DNA of 32,000 bases, taken from assembly GCA_963816715.1 (NCBI GenBank), contig CAWFMJ010000024.1, forward strand, positions 14,111 to 46,110, written 5' to 3'. Position numbers and translations under genes: made by a program. The notes below the pieces were generated by a model. That model was not told the origin of the DNA and did no database searches. It saw nothing but the letters and a program-made list of their open reading frames with translations. Shown here one piece after another: positions 13,434-28,475 of this stretch. How positions within the stretch are numbered: the first letter of the stretch is position 1; each line of letters starts with the position of its first letter. Source of the stretch: an uncultured delta proteobacterium (GTDB lineage Bacteria > Desulfobacterota > Syntrophorhabdia > Syntrophorhabdales > WCHB1-27).

Positions 13434-13871
13434 TCAGGGTGATTCGTACAGCGATTCGGGCAGCGATTCTATATACGCCTTGATCTCGTCTCGCACGCGC
13501 CGGTAGTGCCGCATGGCCTGCTCTTTGTCCGGGGCGTCTTTTGCGAGCCGGGGCGGATCCTCAAAACTGCGGTGGATGAGAGCCGTTTTGGCGGGGAAGA
13601 AGGGACAGGTCTGCTGGGCATCGTCGCAGAGGGTGATGACGTAATCAAACTCCCTATCGCCCAGCTCTGCCACCGATTTGGACCGCTGCCCGGAGATATC
13701 AACGCCTGCTTCCTCCATGGCCCGCACGGCCCGTGGATCGACGCCTTGAGGCTGGGTTCCCGCCGAGTACGCTTCCAGAATGTCTGCCTTCAAGCGTTTT
13801 GCCCATCCTTCGGCCATCTGGCTGCGGCAGGAATTGCCCGTACAAAGGAACAACACTTTCAGTTTCCGCAT
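13434..13871 (-). CDS. arsC: Low-molecular-weight phosphatase-fold (thioredoxin-type) arsenate reductase
   Basis: MRKLKVLFLCTGNSCRSQMAEGWAKRL (CxxxxxR(S) loop), VITLCDDAQQTCPFFP, HRSFEDPPRL. Confidence 0.92.
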   Translation of the reverse strand: MRKLKVLFLCTGNSCRSQMAEGWAKRLKADILEAYSAGTQPQGVDPRAVRAMEEAGVDISGQRSKSVAELGDREFDYVITLCDDAQQTCPFFPAKTALIHRSFEDPPRLAKDAPDKEQAMRHYRRVRDEIKAYIESLPESLYESP

Positions 13872-13926: not shown

Positions 13927-14229
13927 TTACTGACAGGAGGGGCAGCCGTCGTCATCCACGACGCAACAGGCCTTCTTTCTGCCAAGCATCTTGTTGAGTA
14001 GGCCCGCTGCACAGCCCACACCCGCCCTCACGTTCAGGGAGCCGCTCGGGCAGTTCTGCCGGCAGGCGCCGCACTCGATGCACGCGTCCCGGGAGGCGAC
14101 TTCGATCTTCCCGTTCACAGGCCGGAACACCTCGCGCGGGCAGACGGCAAGGCACATGCCGCAGCCCGTGCACCGGGAAGCGTCAAAGGCGAGAGTGACC
14201 ACATCTTCAAGGTAGAGCAAGGGACGCAT
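13927..14229 (-). CDS. hgcB: HgcB, 2x[4Fe-4S] ferredoxin of mercury methylation
   Basis: 100 aa from ATG at 14229: CTGCGMCLAVCP and CIECGACRQNCP clusters, C-terminal CC and CPSC; directly follows hgcA (5-nt gap). Confidence 0.92.
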   Translation of the reverse strand: MRPLLYLEDVVTLAFDASRCTGCGMCLAVCPREVFRPVNGKIEVASRDACIECGACRQNCPSGSLNVRAGVGCAAGLLNKMLGRKKACCVVDDDGCPSCQ

Positions 14230-14234
14230 GGCTT

Positions 14235-15359
14235 CTACCCTCCCATCGCTGCGGCGGCGATCCACAGAGCGAGGCCCACGGTCATCCCCCCTACTTCGAG
14301 GGGAAGGGCAAGACGCATCTCCTTCTGAACTCCGGAGAGCGACGTATACGTGGAGGCGCCGGTAAAGTTCATCGCCAAAAATGCAGCCAAAGCGGGAATG
14401 GAGAAGAGCTGGGCGAGAGCAGCGGCCACGCCGGGATGCAGGAAGGCGTTGTTGAACGCGAGGGCGCAAAGGGCGAACAGGAAACCCGGGCCGAGGCCCT
14501 TTGTCGAGAAGGCCCTGCCGGGCAGCCAGGGGAGAAGAAGGGGGGCAAGGGTCGCTCCGGCAAGGATCGAGGCGCCGAGGGAAACGGCAGCCGGCAAGAT
14601 CCAGTATGCCGCCTTCGATACAGAGAAGCCGGAAACAAGGAAGAAAAGGATGGAGAGCCCCGCCGCCGCGAGGATACCCCACTTGAGGCCGGGCACAACC
14701 TCCATGGGGACCAGGGCGAGCCTCTCGTTGAGACAAAAATCCTTTGTCCGCATCCGGCCCGTTGCCTTCAGACCGTTTTTGAGGAAGGCAGGCAGGTCGT
14801 CCGCGCGGACCGGGCCGTAAACCACCTGAAAACCGGAGCGCTGCCTTACAACGTGTGCCGATACGCCGGGCGCGCCCAACTGCGGCACGATAAGGCGCCG
14901 ATGGGATACGATGGCCGCGAGGCCGCTCGACTCGATGCGCTCCACCAGCTCGTCCGTCCCGAACGTGCCCTTTCCCGCTGCGCACCAGACGTTAATCCCC
15001 TGCGTGTCGAGGACGAGGATCCACCCATCTATCCCGGCGAGGGCCCTTCTGAGGAGGTCGAAGGTCATCTTGTAGTTCGCGGTCACAAAAACCGGCGATT
15101 CCGGACGGGCAGTTCCTATCCCATACAGGCCGGGCTCGACCGCGTAGCGCATGCGTCCGATCCCCCATCGCGCCTTGAAGGCGCCGAGTCGGTCAGACCC
15201 GCTAAAAATCTGCGATACCCGAGGGACGGCGCCGACGCCGGTCTCTATCGAACCCGTGACGAAAGCCTGATCGAAGCGCGGAGGACTCGCCTGAGCCCTT
15301 TGCTTCGGTCCTCAACAGGCTTTCGCGGCAGGCGTCTTGATCTGGCACAAGGTTTCCAT
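14235..15359 (-). CDS. hgcA: HgcA, corrinoid mercury methyltransferase; the reading frame includes an in-frame TGA (15312-15314), candidate selenocysteine codon (the ORF caller only sees 14235..15152)
   Basis: Cap-helix motif GINVWCAAGKGTFGTDELVERI, RYAVEPGLYGIGT, C-terminal membrane domain. Manual translation upstream of 15152 gives METLCQIKTPAAKAC(TGA)GPKQRAQASPPRFDQAFVTGSIETGVGAVPRVSQIFSGSDRLGAFKARWGIGR-MRYAVEPG; the VPRVSQ...DRLGAFKARWGIGR stretch resembles the known HgcA N-terminus. An additional in-frame ATG lies at 15371. HgcA identity is near certain; the extended model is moderate. Confidence 0.8.
15272..15307 (-). promoter_or_regulatory. Candidate bacterial SECIS stem-loop inside hgcA
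   Basis: Minus strand CGAAGC-AA-AGGGCTC-AGGC-GAGTCCT-CCGC-GCTTCG: 6-bp lower stem, 2x4 internal loop, 7-bp upper stem (one G.U), 4-nt apical loop AGGC; 19 nt between the UGA and the apical loop. Confidence 0.6.
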
Positions 15360-15366
15360 ATTTTCA

Positions 15367-15395
15367 AACATAAACGCTTTCGACGTCCCTGTCAA
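15367..15395 (-). promoter_or_regulatory. Putative sigma70-type promoter for hgcA-hgcB-arsC
   Basis: Minus strand TTGACA (15395-15390), 17-nt spacer, TATGTT (15372-15367). Confidence 0.4.
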
Positions 15396-15460
15396 GAGGA
15401 TATATAAACTATTTTAGATGTGAGGTAACTATTTGATTGACCTGGGCCACGATATGCGTT

Positions 15461-15497: not shown

Positions 15498-15860
15498 ATG
15501 GATGAGCTCCTATCCTTATTCAAAGCGCTGTCGGACGAAACGAGGTTGAGGATAGTAAAGCTCCTGGAGAACGGCGAGCTTTGTGTATGCCATCTCGTGG
15601 CCGCTGTCGACATGTCCCAGCCGAAGGTTTCGTTCCACCTCAAGGTACTGAAGGGGGCGGGGCTGATCAAGGACAGGCGCGAGGGGAAATGGATGTATTA
15701 TCGCCTCAATGAATCGGACCTGTTCAAACGACTCCTTTTTCTGTCCGTCGCCGACCGGGTCCGGGAGGAAGAGATGGCGGCCGACCACGCAAGACTCGAC
15801 GCGTTCAGGACGCCGCGCGCGGATGGGGACCCTGGGACCGGTTGCTGTGTGGGGGCATGA
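15498..15860 (+). CDS. arsR: ArsR/SmtB-family metalloregulator
   Basis: [57 protein letters not shown]; ELCVCHL matches the As(III)-sensing motif. Confidence 0.93.
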
Positions 15861-16951
15861 AAATGAACGACACGACCCGCAGACTGTCTTTCCTCGACCG
15901 CTTCCTGACGCTCTGGATCTTCCTCGCCATGTTCGTCGGCGTCGGCTGGGGATATGCCTTCCCCGGCGTGGTGGCTTTCTGGAATCGCTTCCAGAGCGGG
16001 ACAACGAACATCCCGATTGCCATCGGCCTTATCCTCATGATGTACCCACCCCTGGCGAAGGTCAGGTACGAAGAGCTCGGCGAGGTTTTCAAGAACTTCA
16101 AGGTCCTCGGCCTGTCACTCGTGCAGAACTGGGTGGTGGGCCCGATCCTCATGTTCGTTCTCGCGATCGTTTTCCTCGAGGGCTATCCCGACTATATGGT
16201 GGGCCTCATCATGATCGGCCTGGCCCGCTGCATCGCCATGGTCATCGTGTGGAACGACCTTGCCAGGGGAGACGCCGAGTACTGCGCGGGCCTCGTGGCC
16301 TTCAACGCCCTCTTCCAGGTCCTCTTCTTCAGCGTTTACGCCTACGTCTTTATCACGGTCCTGCCCCCGATGCTCGGCCTGAAAGGCGTTGTGGTCAATA
16401 TCACCATAGGCCAGATCGCCAAAAGCGTCTTCATCTATCTGGGCGTTCCTTTCATCGCGGGCGTAGCGACGCGTTTTGTCCTCATTAACGTCAAGGACAA
16501 GGTCTGGTATCACGAGCGGTTCATCCCGAAGATCAGCCCCATCACCTTGATCGCCCTCCTGTTCACGATCCTCGTGATGTTCTCCCTCAAGGGCGAGTAT
16601 ATCGTCAAGATCCCTCTCGATGTAGTCCGCATCGCGGTTCCGCTCCTTGTCTACTTCATCGTCATGTTTCTCGTTTCCTTCTACATGAGCGGCAAGGTCG
16701 GCGCCCACTACGGCCAGGCAGCCACCCTGTCATTTACTGCGGCTTCCAACAACTTCGAGCTGGCGATCGCCGTCGCGGTTGCCGTTTTCGGCATCAATTC
16801 CGGGCAGGCCTTCGCAGCAGTCATAGGTCCGCTGGTTGAAGTGCCGGTGCTGATCAACCTGGTCCATCTGTCTCTGTGGTTCAAGAGGAAATACTTCCCC
16901 TATGCAAGAGAAACAGCAATCGGGGTGTGCTACTACACGTGCAGGCAGTAA
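15857..16951 (+). CDS. acr3: Arsenite efflux transporter, ACR3 family
   Basis: [105 protein letters not shown]; ATGA overlap with the arsR stop. Confidence 0.95.
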
Positions 16952-16976
16952 GACTATTTCGATCAAGGGGGCCGAG

Positions 16977-17426
16977 ATGAAGAACAGAACCGAAGTTGCG
17001 GTAGAGAAGTTTATGCAGGGTTACAACTGTGCCCAGTCGGTATTCTACTCTTTTTGCGACGACGTCGGATTCGATAAGAATGCGGCGTTGAAAATAGCCT
17101 GTGGATTCGGGGCCGGCATGGGGCGCAAAGAGGAGGTCTGCGGCGCCGTAACGGGCGGGATAATCGTCATCGGTATGAAATATGGCAGGGGCGAGAACGA
17201 CGCCCGTGCGGCTACGGAACTGACCTATGCAAAGACGCGAGAGCTGATGGACCGTTTTTCAGAGAAGCGCGGGACCTTCATCTGCCGAAAGCTGCTGGAC
17301 GGCTGCGAACTCACCGCCGAGGAGGGACAAAAGCACTTCAAGGAGAAGGACCTCTCGAACAAAACATGCAAGCTGTGCGTTCAAGACGCAGTCAGCATCC
17401 TGGAAGGCATCATTCAGGCAGAGTGA
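16977..17426 (+). CDS. C_GCAxxG_C_C family protein (Cys-rich, putative redox)
   Basis: GYNCAQSVFYSFCDDVG...ACGFGAGMGRKEEVCGAVTGGIIVIGMKYG...CRKLLDGCELT...CKLCVQDAVSILE. Confidence 0.85.
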   Translation: MKNRTEVAVEKFMQGYNCAQSVFYSFCDDVGFDKNAALKIACGFGAGMGRKEEVCGAVTGGIIVIGMKYGRGENDARAATELTYAKTRELMDRFSEKRGTFICRKLLDGCELTAEEGQKHFKEKDLSNKTCKLCVQDAVSILEGIIQAE

Positions 17427-25102: not shown

Positions 25103-25789
25103 ATGCGTCCAATCTGGTCAGGCGCCGTCAGCTTCGGGTTGATCAACATCCCAGTGAAGCTCTACTCGGCGGTAGGGGAAAAGGGTCCCGACCTTGACAT
25201 GCTCAGGCGTCAGGATCTTTGTCCCATACGGTACGCACGGGTCTGCCGCGACACGGGGGAGGAGGTCCCCTATGAGGATATCGTGAAAGGCTATGAGTAC
25301 CGAAAGGGCGATTATGTCGTTCTCGAAGACGAGGACTTCAAACGGGCCGCTGCCGTGAAGACCCAGACCATCGACATTGTGGAATTTGTCGACGTCAGCG
25401 AAGTAGACCCGAAGTTCTTTGAGAAACCTTACTACCTCGAGCCGACGAAACAGTCAGCCAAGGCCTACGCCATTTTGCGGGAAGCCCTGAAAAAAACAGG
25501 GAAAGTGGGCGTGGGCGTCTTCGTTCTCCGCAACCGGGAACGCCCGATCGCCCTCAAGCCGGAGGGGGACCTCATCGTGCTCGAACAGATGCGCTTCGTC
25601 GACGAGATCAGGACGCCCGAGGGACTCAATTTGCCCTCGAAGGACGAAGCGACCGAGCGGGAGCTGGACATCGCGATAAAATTGATCGACCAACTCGCGG
25701 AGCCCTTCAAGCCCGAGCAGTTTCACGACTCCTACAAAGAGGAACTGGAAAAAGCTAGTGCAGGACAAAATTCAGGGAAAACCGCCTGA
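25103..25789 (+). CDS. ku: Ku protein of bacterial NHEJ; C-terminal tail appears displaced to another frame (to 25886)
   Basis: MRPIWSGAVSFGLINIPVKLYSAV, GYEYRKGDYVVLEDEDF, FFEKPYYLEP, RFVDEIR. After the AAAAA run at 25749-25753 the alternative frame encodes KLVQDKIQGKPPEAPKEAPTPTEVPDLMAKLRESLEYARKRKTA*. Confidence 0.93.
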   Translation: MRPIWSGAVSFGLINIPVKLYSAVGEKGPDLDMLRRQDLCPIRYARVCRDTGEEVPYEDIVKGYEYRKGDYVVLEDEDFKRAAAVKTQTIDIVEFVDVSEVDPKFFEKPYYLEPTKQSAKAYAILREALKKTGKVGVGVFVLRNRERPIALKPEGDLIVLEQMRFVDEIRTPEGLNLPSKDEATERELDIAIKLIDQLAEPFKPEQFHDSYKEELEKASAGQNSGKTA

Positions 25790-25860: not shown

Positions 25861-28475
25861 ATGCGCGAAAAAGAAAGACCGCCTGACGAGTCCGGCGAAA
25901 ACCTCAAAGAATACCGCGAAAAACGGGACTTCTCGGTCACTCCCGAGCCGCCAGGGACAAAAGGCGCCGAGGAAGAAAGGCCGCTCTCTTTCGTGGTTCA
26001 CAAGCATCAGGCCTCGCATCTTCACTATGATCTCCGTCTGGAACTTGACGGAGTGTTGAAAAGCTGGGCAGTCCCGAAGGGGCCGTCCCTCGATCCGGGC
26101 GAAAGAAAGCTGGCGATGATGGTGGAGGACCACCCCTTCGACTACCGGACCTTTGAGGGAGTCATCCCCGAGGGCAATTACGGGGCCGGGACAGTGATGA
26201 TCTGGGACCGGGGCGATTATCGCGCCGCTGGCCGCACGGGCCGACGGGAGAGCGAGGAGGCGCTGAGACAGGGTTTGAGCCGAGGCCATATCAGCTTCGT
26301 GCTGAACGGGCAAAAGCTGAAGGGGGAATTCGCCCTCGTGCGTTTGAAAAGAGCCGAAGAGAACAGTTGGCTTCTCATTAAGGCAAAGGATGAATTCGCG
26401 CAAAGTCCGTGGCGTCCGCAGGACGAGACGTCGGTCGCCTCCGGTAGGAGCATGGAGGAAATCGCGGCGGCGGAGGCCGCTACCCCCGCAGCGGCCCTTC
26501 ACGCTAAGGAGAAGGACCGCCAGGCGCCAAAGTACACGCCCCTCGACCTTGCCGATGCCCCGGCAGCGCCCATGCCCGCGCATGTCAAGCCGATGATGGC
26601 AACCCTCGTGGAAAAGCCCTTCGACCGGCCCGGCTGGCTCTTTGAAATCAAGTGGGACGGGTATCGGGCTCTTTGCGAGGTGAAAGGAGGCGCTGTCCGC
26701 CTCTACTCCCGAAACGACTTGACCATGAATGATCGCTTCCCGGCCCTGGCGGCGGCCCTCGCCAGCTTGCCCTTCGACGCTTTGCTTGATGGAGAGATAG
26801 TGGCGCTGGACAAATCGGGGAAGGCCGACTTTCAACTGCTTCAAAATTACCTGACGTCGGGCCAGGGCGAGCTTGTCTATTATGTCTTCGACCTCCTTTA
26901 CTACAGTGGCCGGGACCTCAGAGTGCTTCCCCTCACCAGACGCAAATCGGCCCTCGAGAAGATTATCGCGGGCCGACCCTTCCTGAGGCTGAGCGACCAT
27001 GTGGAGGCGCAGGGAGAGGCCCTTTTCCAGGCGGCGAAAGAGGCAGGCGTCGAGGGGATCGTCGCAAAGGACGGCGGCAGTCCCTACCGGTCGGGTCATC
27101 GGGGCCGGGAATGGCTGAAGGTGAAGACGCACTTGCGCCAGGAAGCGGTGATCGCCGGCTTCACTCAGCCGCGGGGCGGAAGGACCGGCTTTGGCGCCCT
27201 CGTCCTCGGTGTTTACGAAAACGGCTCGCTCGTCTACATCGGTCATACGGGCGGCGGATTTACCGACGCGCAGCTCGAGTCTCTTCACAAGCTCCTTCTG
27301 CCGCTTGCCGCAAAAGAGTCCCCTTTCAATAAGCCGCCGGCGACGAACACGCCGGCGACGTGGGTCGCCCCCAAGCTCGTCGCCGAAATCAGCTTTTCCG
27401 AGTGGACGAAGGAGGGGATCATGCGCCACCCTGTTTTTCTTGGCCTACGAGAAGATCTCGATCCCCTTGACGTGAAGAAGGAGCAACCCCAAAACCTGTC
27501 ATTCGGGACGATGCCCGGCTCAGACCCTCAGGTGGGGACGGAAGCCTCGAGAAAGCGCAAAGGAAGGCTCGTCGCCATCAACGACGTCAAGGTCGATCTG
27601 ACCAATCTGGAGAAGGTGCTCTGGCCCGGCGAAGGATATACCAAAGCAGACCTGATTGCCTACTACCGGTCTGTGGCGCCCTTTATCCTCCCCTATCTCA
27701 AGGACCGCCCGGAGTCGCTCCATCGCCATCCCGACGGCATCGCTTCCCCGGCTTCTTCCAGAAGAACGTCGGCAACGCCTTCCCGGCCTGGGTCGAAACG
27801 GTCCGCGTCTATTCAGAGTCGGACGGCAAGGAAGTGAACTACCTCCTCTGTCAGGACGAAGCGGCCCTCGTCTACATGGCAAACCTCGGCTGCATCGAGA
27901 TCAATCCCTGGCATGCAAGGACCGGACATCTCGATAATCCCGATTACATGGTCCTCGACCTCGACCCCCTGGACATTCCGTTCCATGAGGTGGTGCGATG
28001 CGCCCTTGTCACCCGCGACGTGCTCGCCACGGTAGGCGCCGCCTGTTTCTGCAAGACATCGGGCGCCACAGGCCTTCACGTTTATGTCCCCCTCGGAGCC
28101 CAATACTCCCACGATCAGGCCACGCAGTTCGCCCGGCTCGTCAACCACCTGGTACACCGGCGTCTGCCCGGCAGCACAAGCCTCGAAAGGATGCCGGAGA
28201 AGCGAAAAGGAAGGGTCTACCTCGACTTCCTCCAAAACGGCCGCGGTCAGACCCTCGTTGCGCCCTATTGCCTGCGGCCCGGAAAAGGCGCTCCGGCTTC
28301 CACCCCGCTTCTCTGGGAAGAGGTGAACGACTCCCTCGATCCCGCCCGCTTCACCATAGAGACCATGGGGGCGCGTTTGCAGCAGATGGGCGATCTGTGG
28401 AAAGATGTGCTCGGCCCCGGCATCGATATGGAGCAGTGTCTCGCCCGAATCGACGAAATGTTCGAAAAACCGTAG
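25861..28475 (+). CDS. ligD: ATP-dependent DNA ligase LigD (phosphoesterase-ligase-polymerase), interrupted by a frameshift near 27743-27750
   Basis: PE domain VVHKHQASHLHYDLRLELDGVLKSWAVPKGPS; ligase motif EIKWDGYRA; polymerase domain split: ...LKDRPESLHRHPDGI in the first frame, GFFQKNVGNAFPAWVETVRVYSESDGKEVNYLLCQDEAALVYMANLGCIEINPWH... in the second (ORF caller: 25861..27837 and 27834..28475). Confidence 0.93.

What the first reader, a model, noticed from the sequence alone, without database searches (positions are those of the whole stretch)
15272..15314. Bacterial-SECIS-like stem-loop immediately downstream of the hgcA UGA
Seen directly: UGA-GGAC-CGAAGC-AA-AGGGCUC-AGGC-GAGUCCU-CCGC-GCUUCG. 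The lower stem CGAAGC/GCUUCG is a perfect 6 bp, the upper stem AGGGCUC/GAGUCCU is 7 bp with one G.U, and the tetraloop AGGC has G at its second and third positions. The distance from UGA to apical loop is 19 nt, inside the 16-37 nt usually quoted for bacterial SECIS elements with a G in the first two apical positions. Such structure within coding sequence exactly at an otherwise unexplained in-frame UGA is the independent second line of evidence. An alternative GAGGAC/GUCCUC pairing starting at the UGA is mutually exclusive with the upper stem.
Basis: partly seen in the sequence, partly recalled or inferred. Interest (0 to 1): 0.82.

Follow-up and report, generated by a model that had tools for sequence, protein, structure and literature searches.

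The report
Selenocysteine insertion hairpin in hgcA
The hairpin just after the in-frame UGA of the mercury-methylation gene hgcA is real and conserved with compensatory changes wherever relatives keep that UGA, so it is almost certainly the RNA signal that makes the ribosome insert selenocysteine there; HgcA was already reported to be a selenoprotein.

Summary
On the minus strand, hgcA (14235-15359) has UGU-UGA at 15317-15312. Twelve nt later comes AGGGCUC-AGGC-GAGUCCU (15299-15282), a 7-bp stem with a G-rich tetraloop that starts 19 nt after the UGA.

Single-sequence statistics are weak (z about -1.8). The validated E. coli fdhF SECIS scores worse (z -0.9), so that test is uninformative.

Comparative evidence decides the case:
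- About 96 of 164 related hgcA loci carry Cys-TGA at the same codon. Most others have Cys-Cys or CxC there.
- Nearly all TGA forms have the same hairpin 16, 19 or 22 nt downstream, with a loop G.
- The core pairs are 93-97% paired, with at least 6 and at least 9 independent double compensatory switches.
- Synonymous sites are strongly biased towards pairing.
- Cys forms lack the hairpin, apart from a few relics.

In context it loses to a helix that includes the UGA itself.

This is a bacterial SECIS element. HgcA as a Cys-Sec selenoprotein was published in 2022-23, so the hairpin is a newly described member of a known kind. SelB, SelA, SelD and tRNA-Sec are not in the window, and function is untested.

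The parts
14235..15359 (-). hgcA coding sequence read through the UGA (374 codons plus stop). Automated gene calling gives only 14235-15152 (305 aa).
   Evidence: NF040863, 431.8 bits, cut-off 275; cap-helix motif GINVWCAAGKGTF. The identical 305-aa truncated product is in public databases (P0001).
15357..15359 (-). Likely start codon ATG (METLCQIK...).
   Evidence: It aligns with the annotated start of full-length Cys homologue P0005 (METLIPLH...) and with M-[EDK]-T in near relatives.
15315..15317 (-). Cys codon UGU of the Cys-Sec dipeptide.
   Evidence: Cys precedes the TGA in about 89 of 95 Sec-type loci.
15312..15314 (-). In-frame UGA, inferred selenocysteine codon.
   Evidence: It aligns to Cys in P0003, P0005 and P0022. 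TGA sits at the same codon (104-111 codons before NVWCAAGK) in 58 of 80 genome loci. TGA is the ordinary stop of 12 of 21 other genes in the window.
15300..15311 (-). 12-nt spacer between the UGA and the conserved hairpin.
   Evidence: In relatives the spacing from UGA to loop is 19 nt in 70, 16 nt in 5 and 22 nt in 13 of 93 (subtract 7 from the printed values because of an offset bug in the script).
15293..15299 (-). 5' arm of the upper stem, AGGGCUC (conserved 5-bp core is GGCUC, 15297-15293).
15289..15292 (-). Apical tetraloop AGGC. The G at loop position 2 is invariant in the 58-sequence alignment.
   Evidence: invariant column G30 of the first sequence; 91 of 93 have a G in the first two loop positions, and 83 have G at position 2 followed by G or U.
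15282..15288 (-). 3' arm of the upper stem, GAGUCCU (core GAGUC, 15288-15284).
15302..15307 (-). Complementary here but not conserved.
   Evidence: helices 1 and 2 are paired in 50.3% and 28.7% of cells; mostly displaced in the MFE of the longer context.
15272..15277 (-). It is shared with the competing helix CUUCGA (15276-15271).
15259..15326 (-). Extended 68-nt hairpin of this lineage. GCGAAAGCCUG-UUGAGG pairs with CUUCGA-(U)-CAGGCUUUCGU, burying the UGU-UGA codons below the conserved hairpin.
   Evidence: -35.2 kcal/mol, z -3.3 to -3.6. A UGAGG/CCUCG version is present in the nearest relatives L163-L166.
13927..14229 (-). hgcB (ferredoxin partner), Cys form (GVGC, C-terminal region KKACC...CPSCQ).
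   Evidence: NF040864, 109.9 bits, cut-off 99.

Best explanation
The stem-loop at 15299-15282 (minus strand) is the bacterial selenocysteine insertion sequence (SECIS) of hgcA.

Inferred mechanism, by analogy with E. coli fdhF:
1. As the ribosome approaches, the lower helix is unwound. In this lineage that helix contains the UGU-UGA codons.
2. With the UGA in the A site, about 12 nt of spacer lies in the mRNA channel. The 7-bp upper hairpin sits at the channel entrance.
3. The G-G/U bases of its tetraloop are bound by the C-terminal domain of the elongation factor SelB, which carries GTP and Sec-tRNA(Sec).
4. Sec is delivered to the UGA. The product is a 374-residue HgcA whose short N-terminal extension carries a Cys-Sec pair, presumably a soft-metal (Hg) ligand pair.

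Shown here:
- the gene identity;
- the Sec/Cys alignment;
- conservation of the TGA;
- conservation, covariation, fixed in-frame spacing and loop G of the hairpin;
- its absence from Cys forms;
- RNA-level selection on synonymous sites.

Inferred only: SelB binding, actual Sec insertion, and the role of the Cys-Sec pair.
For: **Gene and recoding site**
- HgcA and HgcB both score above the NCBIfam cut-offs.
- There is no start codon between the UGA and Met-70, although conserved HgcA residues lie in between.
- Cys-Cys homologues align over the UGA.
- Cys-TGA sits at the same codon in 58 of 80 genome loci and about 96 of 164 loci overall.
- TGA terminates 12 of 21 other genes in the window, so there is no global reassignment.

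**Hairpin**
- It is the MFE in every context folded.
- Alone it gives z -3.06. It beats 98-99.3% of codon-preserving recodings, and only 0.4% of those keep the core.

**Comparative evidence**
- In MAFFT alignments made without structural input, the five core pairs are 93-97% paired.
- The covariation score exceeds 500 of 500 shuffles, and slid controls drop to 23-53% paired.
- One pair is U-A 72 / C-G 13 / U.G 6. Another is G-C 62 / A-U 13 / G.U 12.
- These correspond to at least 6 and at least 9 independent switches on a tree built from the rest of the protein.

**Synonymous sites**
- The Ala codon in the 5' arm is GCU in 57 of 67 cases (17% expected) and never GCA or GCG.
- The Ser codon in the 3' arm is AGY in 67 of 67 cases (24% expected).

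**Geometry**
- The loop starts 16, 19 or 22 nt after the UGA in 88 of 93 loci. A G occupies the first two loop positions in 91 of 93.
- All four bSECIS criteria listed in PMC13188914 are met.
- E. coli fdhF has its GGUC loop 18 nt after the UGA.

**Specificity**
- Cys-type loci lack a hairpin of consistent position. Median best stem is 4-4.5 bp against 6 bp (Mann-Whitney p = 2e-7).
- The covariance model scores them at 24 bits or less, against 42-65 bits for Sec forms and relics.

**Literature**
- HgcA was independently proposed as a Cys-Sec selenoprotein.
Against: - No selA, selB, selD or tRNA-Sec lies in the 32-kb window. The organism's ability to decode Sec is therefore unverified here.
- No Rfam family matches. 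That is expected, because no general bacterial SECIS model matched at either threshold.
- Single-sequence z-scores for the 43-nt and 61-nt excerpts are modest, -1.8 to -1.9.
- Part of the column conservation could come from shared ancestry and from the coded peptide (A-Q-x-S-[LP]-P).
- The binomial p-values ignore phylogeny.
- Five Syntrophorhabdus loci have a shifted hairpin with a hexaloop (CGGUAA, CGGUGA or CGGUCA) rather than the consensus register.
- No experiment shows SelB binding or selenium in HgcA.
Confidence: 0.9

Rival explanations
1. The conserved hairpin is a by-product of a conserved peptide motif (A-Q-x-S-[LP]-P) that matters for the protein. The RNA pairing is incidental.
For: The region is coding, and the peptide AQxS(L/P)P recurs in most Sec-type loci.
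Against: - Synonymous positions are fixed in the pairing-competent state: GCU 57 of 67 against 17% expected, and Ser always AGY against 24% expected.
- Non-synonymous Ser-to-Gly and Ala-to-Thr changes are matched by synonymous changes in the partner codon, with at least 6 and at least 9 independent switches.
- Only 0.4% of synonymous recodings of the window peptide keep the hairpin.
- Cys-type HgcA lack the motif altogether, e.g. CCGATPAEAPEPIPRLDQ. The protein therefore does not need it.
Confidence: 0.03
2. The hairpin is a different kind of cis-element, such as a ribosome pause site, an mRNA-stability element or a regulatory structure. It merely co-occurs with the UGA and does not recruit SelB.
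For: - In the window the hairpin sits on top of an unusually stable 68-nt helix (-35.2 kcal/mol, z -3.6).
- That helix lies close to the 5' end of a possibly leaderless mRNA, which could affect translation or stability.
- Flanks pair better than shuffled flanks across Sec-type loci (mean z -0.89).
Against: - The hairpin co-occurs strictly with the TGA.
- The spacing changes only in whole codons (16, 19 or 22 nt).
- The loop G-G/U is invariant, as in the bSECIS model and E. coli fdhF.
- The few non-TGA loci that keep it look like recent derivatives: TCA, CC or TAA at the former Sec codon.
- A second, regulatory role for the lower helix is not excluded.
Confidence: 0.05
3. The UGA is a genuine stop, or an assembly error or pseudogene lesion. 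HgcA starts at Met-70 (15152) as automated annotation has it. The upstream 15-codon ORF and the hairpin are irrelevant or act as a leader.
For: - Public gene calls for this exact sequence give the 305-aa product (P0001).
- The NCBIfam HgcA profile starts at residue 45 of the extended protein.
Against: - The profile start (residue 45) lies upstream of Met-70, and there is no start codon between the UGA and Met-70.
- Sequence similarity runs through the UGA to Cys-Cys homologues.
- The same Cys-TGA is found in about 96 independent loci from many assemblies and sequencing technologies.
- An identical sequence occurs in an independent Logan assembly (L001).
Confidence: 0.02

Closest known systems
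Bacterial SECIS elements (bSECIS consensus model of Zhang and Gladyshev, as summarised in PMC13188914)
   Same: - It lies in the coding sequence immediately 3' of an in-frame UGA.
- It has a small apical loop (4 nt) and a 7-bp upper stem.
- The loop has G at position 2 followed by G or U.
- The spacing of 19 nt falls within 16-37 nt.
- The free energy is below -7.5 kcal/mol.
   Different: - The core sequence (GGCUC-AGKU-GAGCC) is unusually conserved across many orders. [quoted passage not shown]
- Haft reported that the SECIS prediction server he tried failed on his new selenoproteins.
E. coli fdhF SECIS (experimentally defined; sequence confirmed in 5,419 of 5,426 genomes)
   Same: - The UGA lies in a lower helix that must melt.
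- The upper hairpin starts 11-12 nt after the UGA.
- The tetraloop containing G-G/U starts 18 nt (fdhF) or 19 nt (hgcA) after the UGA.
- Both show weak single-sequence z-scores.
   Different: - From my own knowledge, fdhF has a bulged U in the upper stem that contributes to SelB binding. The hgcA upper stem is uninterrupted.
- The loop is GGUC in fdhF, against AGGC here (AGGU or AGUU in most relatives).
- The cognate SelB here is unknown.
HgcA Cys-Sec selenoprotein family (Haft 2022 bioRxiv 10.1101/2022.07.06.499078; Haft and Gwadz 2023 J Bacteriol, cited in PMC11588087; listed in PMC13188914 under NF040863 with motif CU)
   Same: - An N-terminal extension upstream of the previously annotated start.
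- A single UGA directly after a Cys.
- Cys-packed non-Sec homologues.
- hgcB adjacent.
   Different: - That work reported PCUGP as perfectly conserved in its 20 examples. The window has ACUGP.
- In the 95 Sec-type loci collected here the residue after Sec is mostly Pro (CUP-), with Gly or Ala in others. A few loci have Ser or Thr instead of Cys before Sec.
- The bioRxiv text describes no hgcA SECIS.

Membership tests
Bacterial SECIS element | Located within the coding sequence immediately downstream of an in-frame UGA that aligns to Cys in homologues. | tested here: met
   UGA 15314-15312 with the hairpin 12 nt downstream. Cys-Cys homologues P0003, P0005 and P0022. TGA conserved in 58 of 80 loci.
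Bacterial SECIS element | Apical loop of 3-9 nt on an upper stem of 4-16 bp (criterion i, PMC13188914 Fig. 2 legend). | tested here: met
   4-nt loop AGGC and a 7-bp stem. Relatives have 5-8 bp stems and mostly 4-nt loops.
Bacterial SECIS element | At least one G in the first two loop positions, usually G followed by G or U (criterion ii). | tested here: met
   Loop is A-G-G-C. The loop G2 column is invariant in alignment A2. [quoted passage not shown]
Bacterial SECIS element | Spacing of 16-37 nt between the UGA and the apical loop (criterion iii). | tested here: met
   19 nt in the window. 16, 19 or 22 nt in 88 of 93 relatives (corrected for a 7-nt offset in the script).
Bacterial SECIS element | Minimum free energy at or below -7.5 kcal/mol (criterion iv). 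| tested here: met
   -9.3 kcal/mol for the hairpin alone, -17.4 for 43 nt and -35.2 for 72 nt.
Bacterial SECIS element | Structure maintained by selection (covariation) in orthologues that keep the UGA, and lost when Sec is replaced by Cys. | tested here: met
   covariation and independent switches; synonymous-site bias; absent from Cys forms apart from relics L031, L052 and L148.
Bacterial SECIS element | Bound by SelB and required for Sec insertion at the UGA. | not testable with these tools
Bacterial SECIS element | The host genome encodes selA, selB, selC (tRNA-Sec) and selD. | not testable with these tools
   None is in the 32-kb window, and the rest of the genome is not available. Haft states that all 20 species he examined encode the machinery.
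HgcA (mercury methylation corrinoid protein, NF040863) | Whole-protein score above the curated cut-off, cap-helix motif N(V/I)WCA(A/G)GK, C-terminal transmembrane domain, adjacent hgcB. | tested here: met
   431.8 bits against a cut-off of 275. GINVWCAAGKGTF is present. HgcB (NF040864) scores 109.9 against 99 and starts 5 nt downstream.
HgcA Cys-Sec selenoprotein form (Haft) | N-terminal extension with a single UGA directly after Cys; reported pentapeptide PCUGP. | tested here: inconclusive
   The Cys-Sec dipeptide and the extension are present. The pentapeptide is ACUGP, not PCUGP. The flanking residues vary widely among the 95 Sec-type loci, so PCUGP is not a valid defining feature.

The most novel reading that the evidence does not exclude
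In this lineage the SECIS is only the tip of a 68-nt helix of -35 kcal/mol (15326-15259). That helix base-pairs the Cys-Sec codons and begins about 33 nt from the start codon of what looks like a nearly leaderless mRNA. Besides recruiting SelB, this extended structure could gate hgcA translation on the supply of SelB.GTP.Sec-tRNA. That would make mercury methylation selenium-dependent at the level of translation. More broadly, the near-invariant hairpin core could be an hgcA-specific recoding signal that travels with the gene.
Probability: 0.1. Interest if true: 0.6.

Novelty: new member of a known kind. Interest (0 to 1): 0.33.

Why it matters
**Annotation.** Most public hgcA gene calls, including the one for this exact sequence, start at an internal Met and omit the Cys-Sec N-terminus. 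A defined signature lets Sec-type and Cys-type hgcA be told apart and correctly annotated in metagenomes used to assess methylmercury risk. The signature is UGA, then 16, 19 or 22 nt, then GGCUC-AGKU-GAGCC, with the covariation rules found here.

**Biochemistry.** A recent reconstitution of HgcAB cloned what it calls full-length ND132 hgcA for expression in E. coli (PMC11588087). That paper notes only that some hgcA and hgcB homologues 'may be selenoproteins'. If the construct follows the original annotation, it lacks the N-terminal Sec extension that Haft infers for ND132. I did not verify the construct. Knowing the SECIS is a prerequisite for expressing the native selenoprotein form.

**Protein evolution.** The hairpin explains a conserved peptide motif (A-Q-x-S-L/P-P) as an RNA-level constraint, not a protein-level one.

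The underlying discovery, that HgcA is a selenoprotein, is already published, so this is confirmatory and incremental.

Tried and rejected
- **Rfam.** Gathering threshold on the whole window, and E-value threshold on 15150-15420. Nothing relevant came up, only a chance snoRNA hit at E = 6.7.
- **tRNA and sel genes.** ARAGORN found no tRNA or tRNA-Sec in the window. NCBIfam scans of 26 window ORFs found no selA, selB or selD.
- **RNAalifold on the -6..+54 alignment.** It recovered only 4 core pairs and no lower stem.
Rejected: 29-50% paired.
- **The alternative GAGGAC/GUCCUC pairing.** It exists in the window but depends on the GGA-C after the UGA. Most relatives have CCN there, so it is not conserved.
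- **Metagenome scan for close relatives.** It returned only one locus above 60% identity, L082. Near relatives came from the look-up of encoding contigs instead: L163-L166 were usable, one look-up had no DNA, and L162 was too short upstream.
- **Other selenoprotein genes in the window.** A scan for other TGA-interrupted ORFs gave 61 mechanical candidates. None but hgcA had a Cys-TGA context or a known family.
- **My first hairpin tabulation script.** It chose loops wrongly and was redone. The redo still carries a constant +7 offset in the printed spacing.
- **The published J Bacteriol version (PMC9879109).** It is not held in the library, so only the bioRxiv text was checked for an hgcA SECIS description.
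Full report
**1. What is in the sequence**

- ATG 15359-15357, then 14 codons, then UGU (Cys) 15317-15315 and UGA 15314-15312.
- A 12-nt spacer, GGACCGAAGCAA (15311-15300).
- AGGGCUC (15299-15293), the loop AGGC (15292-15289), and GAGUCCU (15288-15282).
- CCGC, then GCUUCG (15277-15272), which is complementary to CGAAGC (15307-15302).

The 43-nt excerpt folds exactly as described: -17.4 kcal/mol, z -1.79, 10 of 200 dinucleotide shuffles as good.

**2. The gene**

Reading through the UGA gives a 374-residue protein.
- It scores 431.8 bits on NCBIfam NF040863, 'mercury methylation corrinoid protein HgcA', against a cut-off of 275.
- The next gene, 13927-14229, is HgcB: NF040864, 109.9 bits against a cut-off of 99.
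- The mechanical ORF list starts hgcA at ATG 15152 (305 aa). No ATG, GTG or TTG lies in frame between the UGA and that Met.
- Yet the HgcA profile already matches from residue 45, and the stretch FVTGSIETGVGAVPRV... is conserved in homologues.
- The locus is flanked by arsC, and by a divergent arsR-acr3 pair.
- TGA terminates 12 of 21 other genes in the window, so UGA is not globally reassigned.

**3. Sec/Cys evidence**

Full-length database homologues have Cys-Cys where the window has Cys-UGA. For example, P0003 reads ...HTPAAPSCCGSRKRTQASPPRLDQPFVTG, against ...IKTPAAKAC[UGA]GPKQRAQASPPRFDQAFVTG in the window.

Among 80 hgcA loci from species-representative genomes, 58 have TGA 104-111 codons upstream of the NVWCAAGK motif, almost always directly after a Cys codon. 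Most of the rest have CC, CCC or CxC there.

Adding metagenome loci and near relatives gives about 96 Sec-type loci out of 164.

[quoted passage not shown] A 2026 review lists the family as a selenoprotein family (PMC13188914). A PNAS paper on HgcAB cites the published version, Haft and Gwadz 2023.

His 'perfectly conserved PCUGP' does not hold in this wider sample. The window has ACUGP, and most loci have C-U-P.

**4. Is the hairpin more than chance?**

On a single sequence the answer is only moderate.
- 43-nt and 61-nt excerpts: z -1.8 to -1.9.
- 18-nt hairpin alone: z -3.06, 0 of 200 shuffles.
- 72-nt context: z -3.6, 1 of 200 shuffles.

As a calibration, the experimentally defined E. coli fdhF SECIS gives only z -0.91, with 37 of 200 shuffles as good. 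Its sequence was confirmed in 5,419 of 5,426 E. coli genomes and is annotated as selenocysteine-containing. Shuffle statistics are therefore a poor test for this class of element.

I resampled synonymous codons using the window's own codon usage.
- The native sequence folds better than 98.1% of recodings at 45 nt and 99.3% at 72 nt.
- Only 0.4% of recodings retain the 5-bp core hairpin in place.

**5. Comparative test**

A plain MAFFT alignment of -6..+54 around the TGA falls into codon register, with no structural input. It covers 58 genome loci (A2) and then 94 loci (A3).

- The five core pairs are 93-97% paired.
- The two outer pairs are about 55-65% paired.
- The covariation score is 0.30, against 0.19 +/- 0.01 in shuffles (0 of 500 as high).
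- Sliding the 3' partner by 1-3 columns drops pairing from 85% to 23-53%.

Individual pairs:
- One pair is U-A in 72, C-G in 13 and U.G in 6 sequences, with 3 unpaired.
- Another is G-C in 62, A-U in 13 and G.U in 12 sequences.

On a neighbour-joining tree built from the rest of the protein, excluding the hairpin-encoding codons, these double changes need at least 6 and at least 9 independent switches.

The changes pair a synonymous site with a non-synonymous one:
- Ala GCU to GCC goes with Ser AGC to Gly GGC.
- Ala GCU to Thr ACU goes with Ser AGC to AGU.

Synonymous sites are strongly biased:
- The Ala codon is GCU in 57 of 67 cases (17% expected from the same genes) and never GCA or GCG.
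- The Ser codon is AGY in 67 of 67 cases (24% expected).
- These p-values ignore phylogeny, but the proteins are only about 50-60% identical, so synonymous sites should be saturated.

Geometry (spacing values corrected for a 7-nt script offset):
- The loop starts 19 nt after the UGA in 70 loci, 16 nt in 5 and 22 nt in 13, out of 93.
- The spacing therefore moves only by whole codons.
- The loop is AGUU (30), AGGU (26), AGGC (10) or another G-containing tetraloop in most others.
- A G is in the first two loop positions in 91 of 93 loci.
- The G at loop position 2 is an invariant column in A2.

**6. Specificity for the UGA**

Cys-type loci have no hairpin of consistent position.
- Median best stem is 4-4.5 bp, against 6 bp in Sec-type loci. 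Mann-Whitney p = 2e-7.
- Mean z is -0.23, against -1.25.
- They also lack the A-Q-x-S-(L/P)-P peptide that the hairpin encodes.

A covariance model built from A2 hits the window only at 15320-15261 (57.9 bits). The next best hit scores 8 bits.

Among loci not classed as Sec-type, the model scores high only on:
- loci my motif filter had missed (L035 and L005, both truly Cys-TGA);
- duplicates (L084, L110);
- three apparent relics.

The relics are L031 (TCA at the Sec codon with a perfect hairpin), L052 (Cys-Cys with a degraded hairpin) and L148 (TAA plus a frame change). Ordinary Cys forms score 24 bits or less.

**7. The lower stem**

RNAalifold does not predict it.

In the 61-nt and 72-nt contexts the MFE uses a competing helix:
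- UUGAGG (15315-15310) with CUUCGA (15276-15271);
- GCGAAAGCCUG (15326-15316) with CAGGCUUUCGU (15269-15259).

This puts the UGU-UGA codons inside a 68-nt hairpin of -35.2 kcal/mol.

The nearest relatives (L163-L166, 76-80% identical proteins) have the UGAGG/CCUCG version of this helix.

Across 92 Sec-type loci, the flanks pair better than shuffled flanks: mean z -0.89, and 80% are below zero. That control does not preserve coding. The Cys-Sec codons (UGC-UGA) are complementary to the conserved Asp-Gln-Pro codons (GAU-CAG-CC) anyway, so this result is only suggestive.

Either lower helix would have to melt when the ribosome reaches the UGA. Only the upper hairpin, starting 12 nt after the UGA, can remain folded.

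That is the arrangement of fdhF, where the minimal SelB-binding hairpin starts 11 nt after the UGA. The functional statement is established knowledge of the E. coli system and is described in PMC13188914.

**8. Comparison with the known**

The element meets all four structural constraints of the published bSECIS model (PMC13188914 Fig. 2 legend):
- loop of 3-9 nt and upper stem of 4-16 bp;
- G in the first two loop positions;
- spacing of 16-37 nt;
- MFE of -7.5 kcal/mol or lower.

It also meets the evolutionary expectations of covariation and loss in Cys forms.

SelB binding, and the presence of selABCD in this genome, could not be tested. The window has no tRNA and no sel gene.

I found no description of an hgcA SECIS in the searchable literature. 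Haft states that the SECIS prediction server he tried failed on his new families and was not used as a criterion. The published J Bacteriol version could not be read.

**9. Verdict**

The functional, conserved element is the upper stem-loop (15299-15282), not the two-tier structure as drawn.

It is a newly characterised member of a known class, in a gene already known to encode a selenoprotein. It is useful for annotation and for expressing native HgcA, but not surprising to a specialist.

Noticed in passing
window 15367-15395 (minus strand), relative to ATG 15359: The only sigma-70-like promoter match in the hgcA-arsR intergenic region is TTGACA, 17 nt, TATGTT. Its -10 hexamer ends 7 nt before the hgcA ATG, and no Shine-Dalgarno sequence is visible. 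The hgcA mRNA may therefore be leaderless or nearly so. This is a consensus match only.
   Followed up: partly
window 13434-13871 (-), 15498-15860 (+), 15842-16951 (+): hgcAB is embedded in arsenic-resistance genes. arsC lies downstream on the same strand, and a divergent arsR-acr3 pair lies upstream. The same ArsR-type regulator, hgcA, hgcB and low-molecular-weight phosphatase (arsC-like) arrangement recurs in the near relatives L163, L164 and L165.
   Followed up: partly
window 16902-17426 (+): Next to acr3 is a C-GCAxxG-C-C family protein (TIGR01909, 82.7 bits). NCBI names this family '(seleno)protein'. The copy here has Cys at the motif positions and no in-frame TGA.
   Followed up: partly
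window 13927-14229 (-): HgcB here is the Cys form (GVGC). Haft reports that about 6% of HgcB proteins have Sec at that position (GVGU).
   Followed up: yes
window 25861-28475 (+), junction at 27834-27837: DNA ligase D is split into two ORFs inside its polymerase domain. The first ORF matches positions 1-54 of the LigD polymerase-domain profile and the second matches 80-244. This suggests a frameshift, either a pseudogene or an assembly error. Ku is encoded just upstream (25103-25789).
   Followed up: no
L031:1519-1578 (MAG, uncultured Desulfobacteraceae): This hgcA has TCA (Ser) exactly where relatives have TGA, yet keeps a perfect GGCUC-AGUU-GAGCC hairpin. It is either a very recent Sec-to-Ser change or a base-call error.
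   Followed up: partly
L052:1501-1560 (Nitrospinota MAG) and L148:1172-1239: Two non-Sec hgcA loci keep a recognisable but degraded copy of the hairpin. L052 has Cys-Cys and a GAGGCU-CAGGAU-AGCCUU hairpin. L148 has TGC-TAA in another frame, with an ATG overlapping it. They look like relics of Sec loss.
   Followed up: partly
L003, L004, L006, L007, L008 (Syntrophorhabdus clade): These Sec-type loci encode one more codon between the UGA and the hairpin than the window does (post-UGA peptide GPSEKRGPVRPPRLDQ). Their hairpin is shifted, with 6 bp and a hexaloop CGGUAA, CGGUGA or CGGUCA starting 22 nt after the UGA. The G-G-U is still at loop positions 2-4, which resembles the E. coli fdhF loop region.
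   Followed up: partly
L072, L076, L092, L093, L106: A few Sec-type hgcA loci have Thr or Ser instead of Cys immediately before the TGA (T-U or S-U rather than C-U). The Cys-Sec dipeptide is therefore not universal in the Sec form.
   Followed up: no
L005 (MAG MFD01476.bin.2.130): This close relative (75% identity) has the Cys-TGA and the hairpin. It loses the reading frame about 20 codons further on, probably through a long-read indel error.
   Followed up: partly
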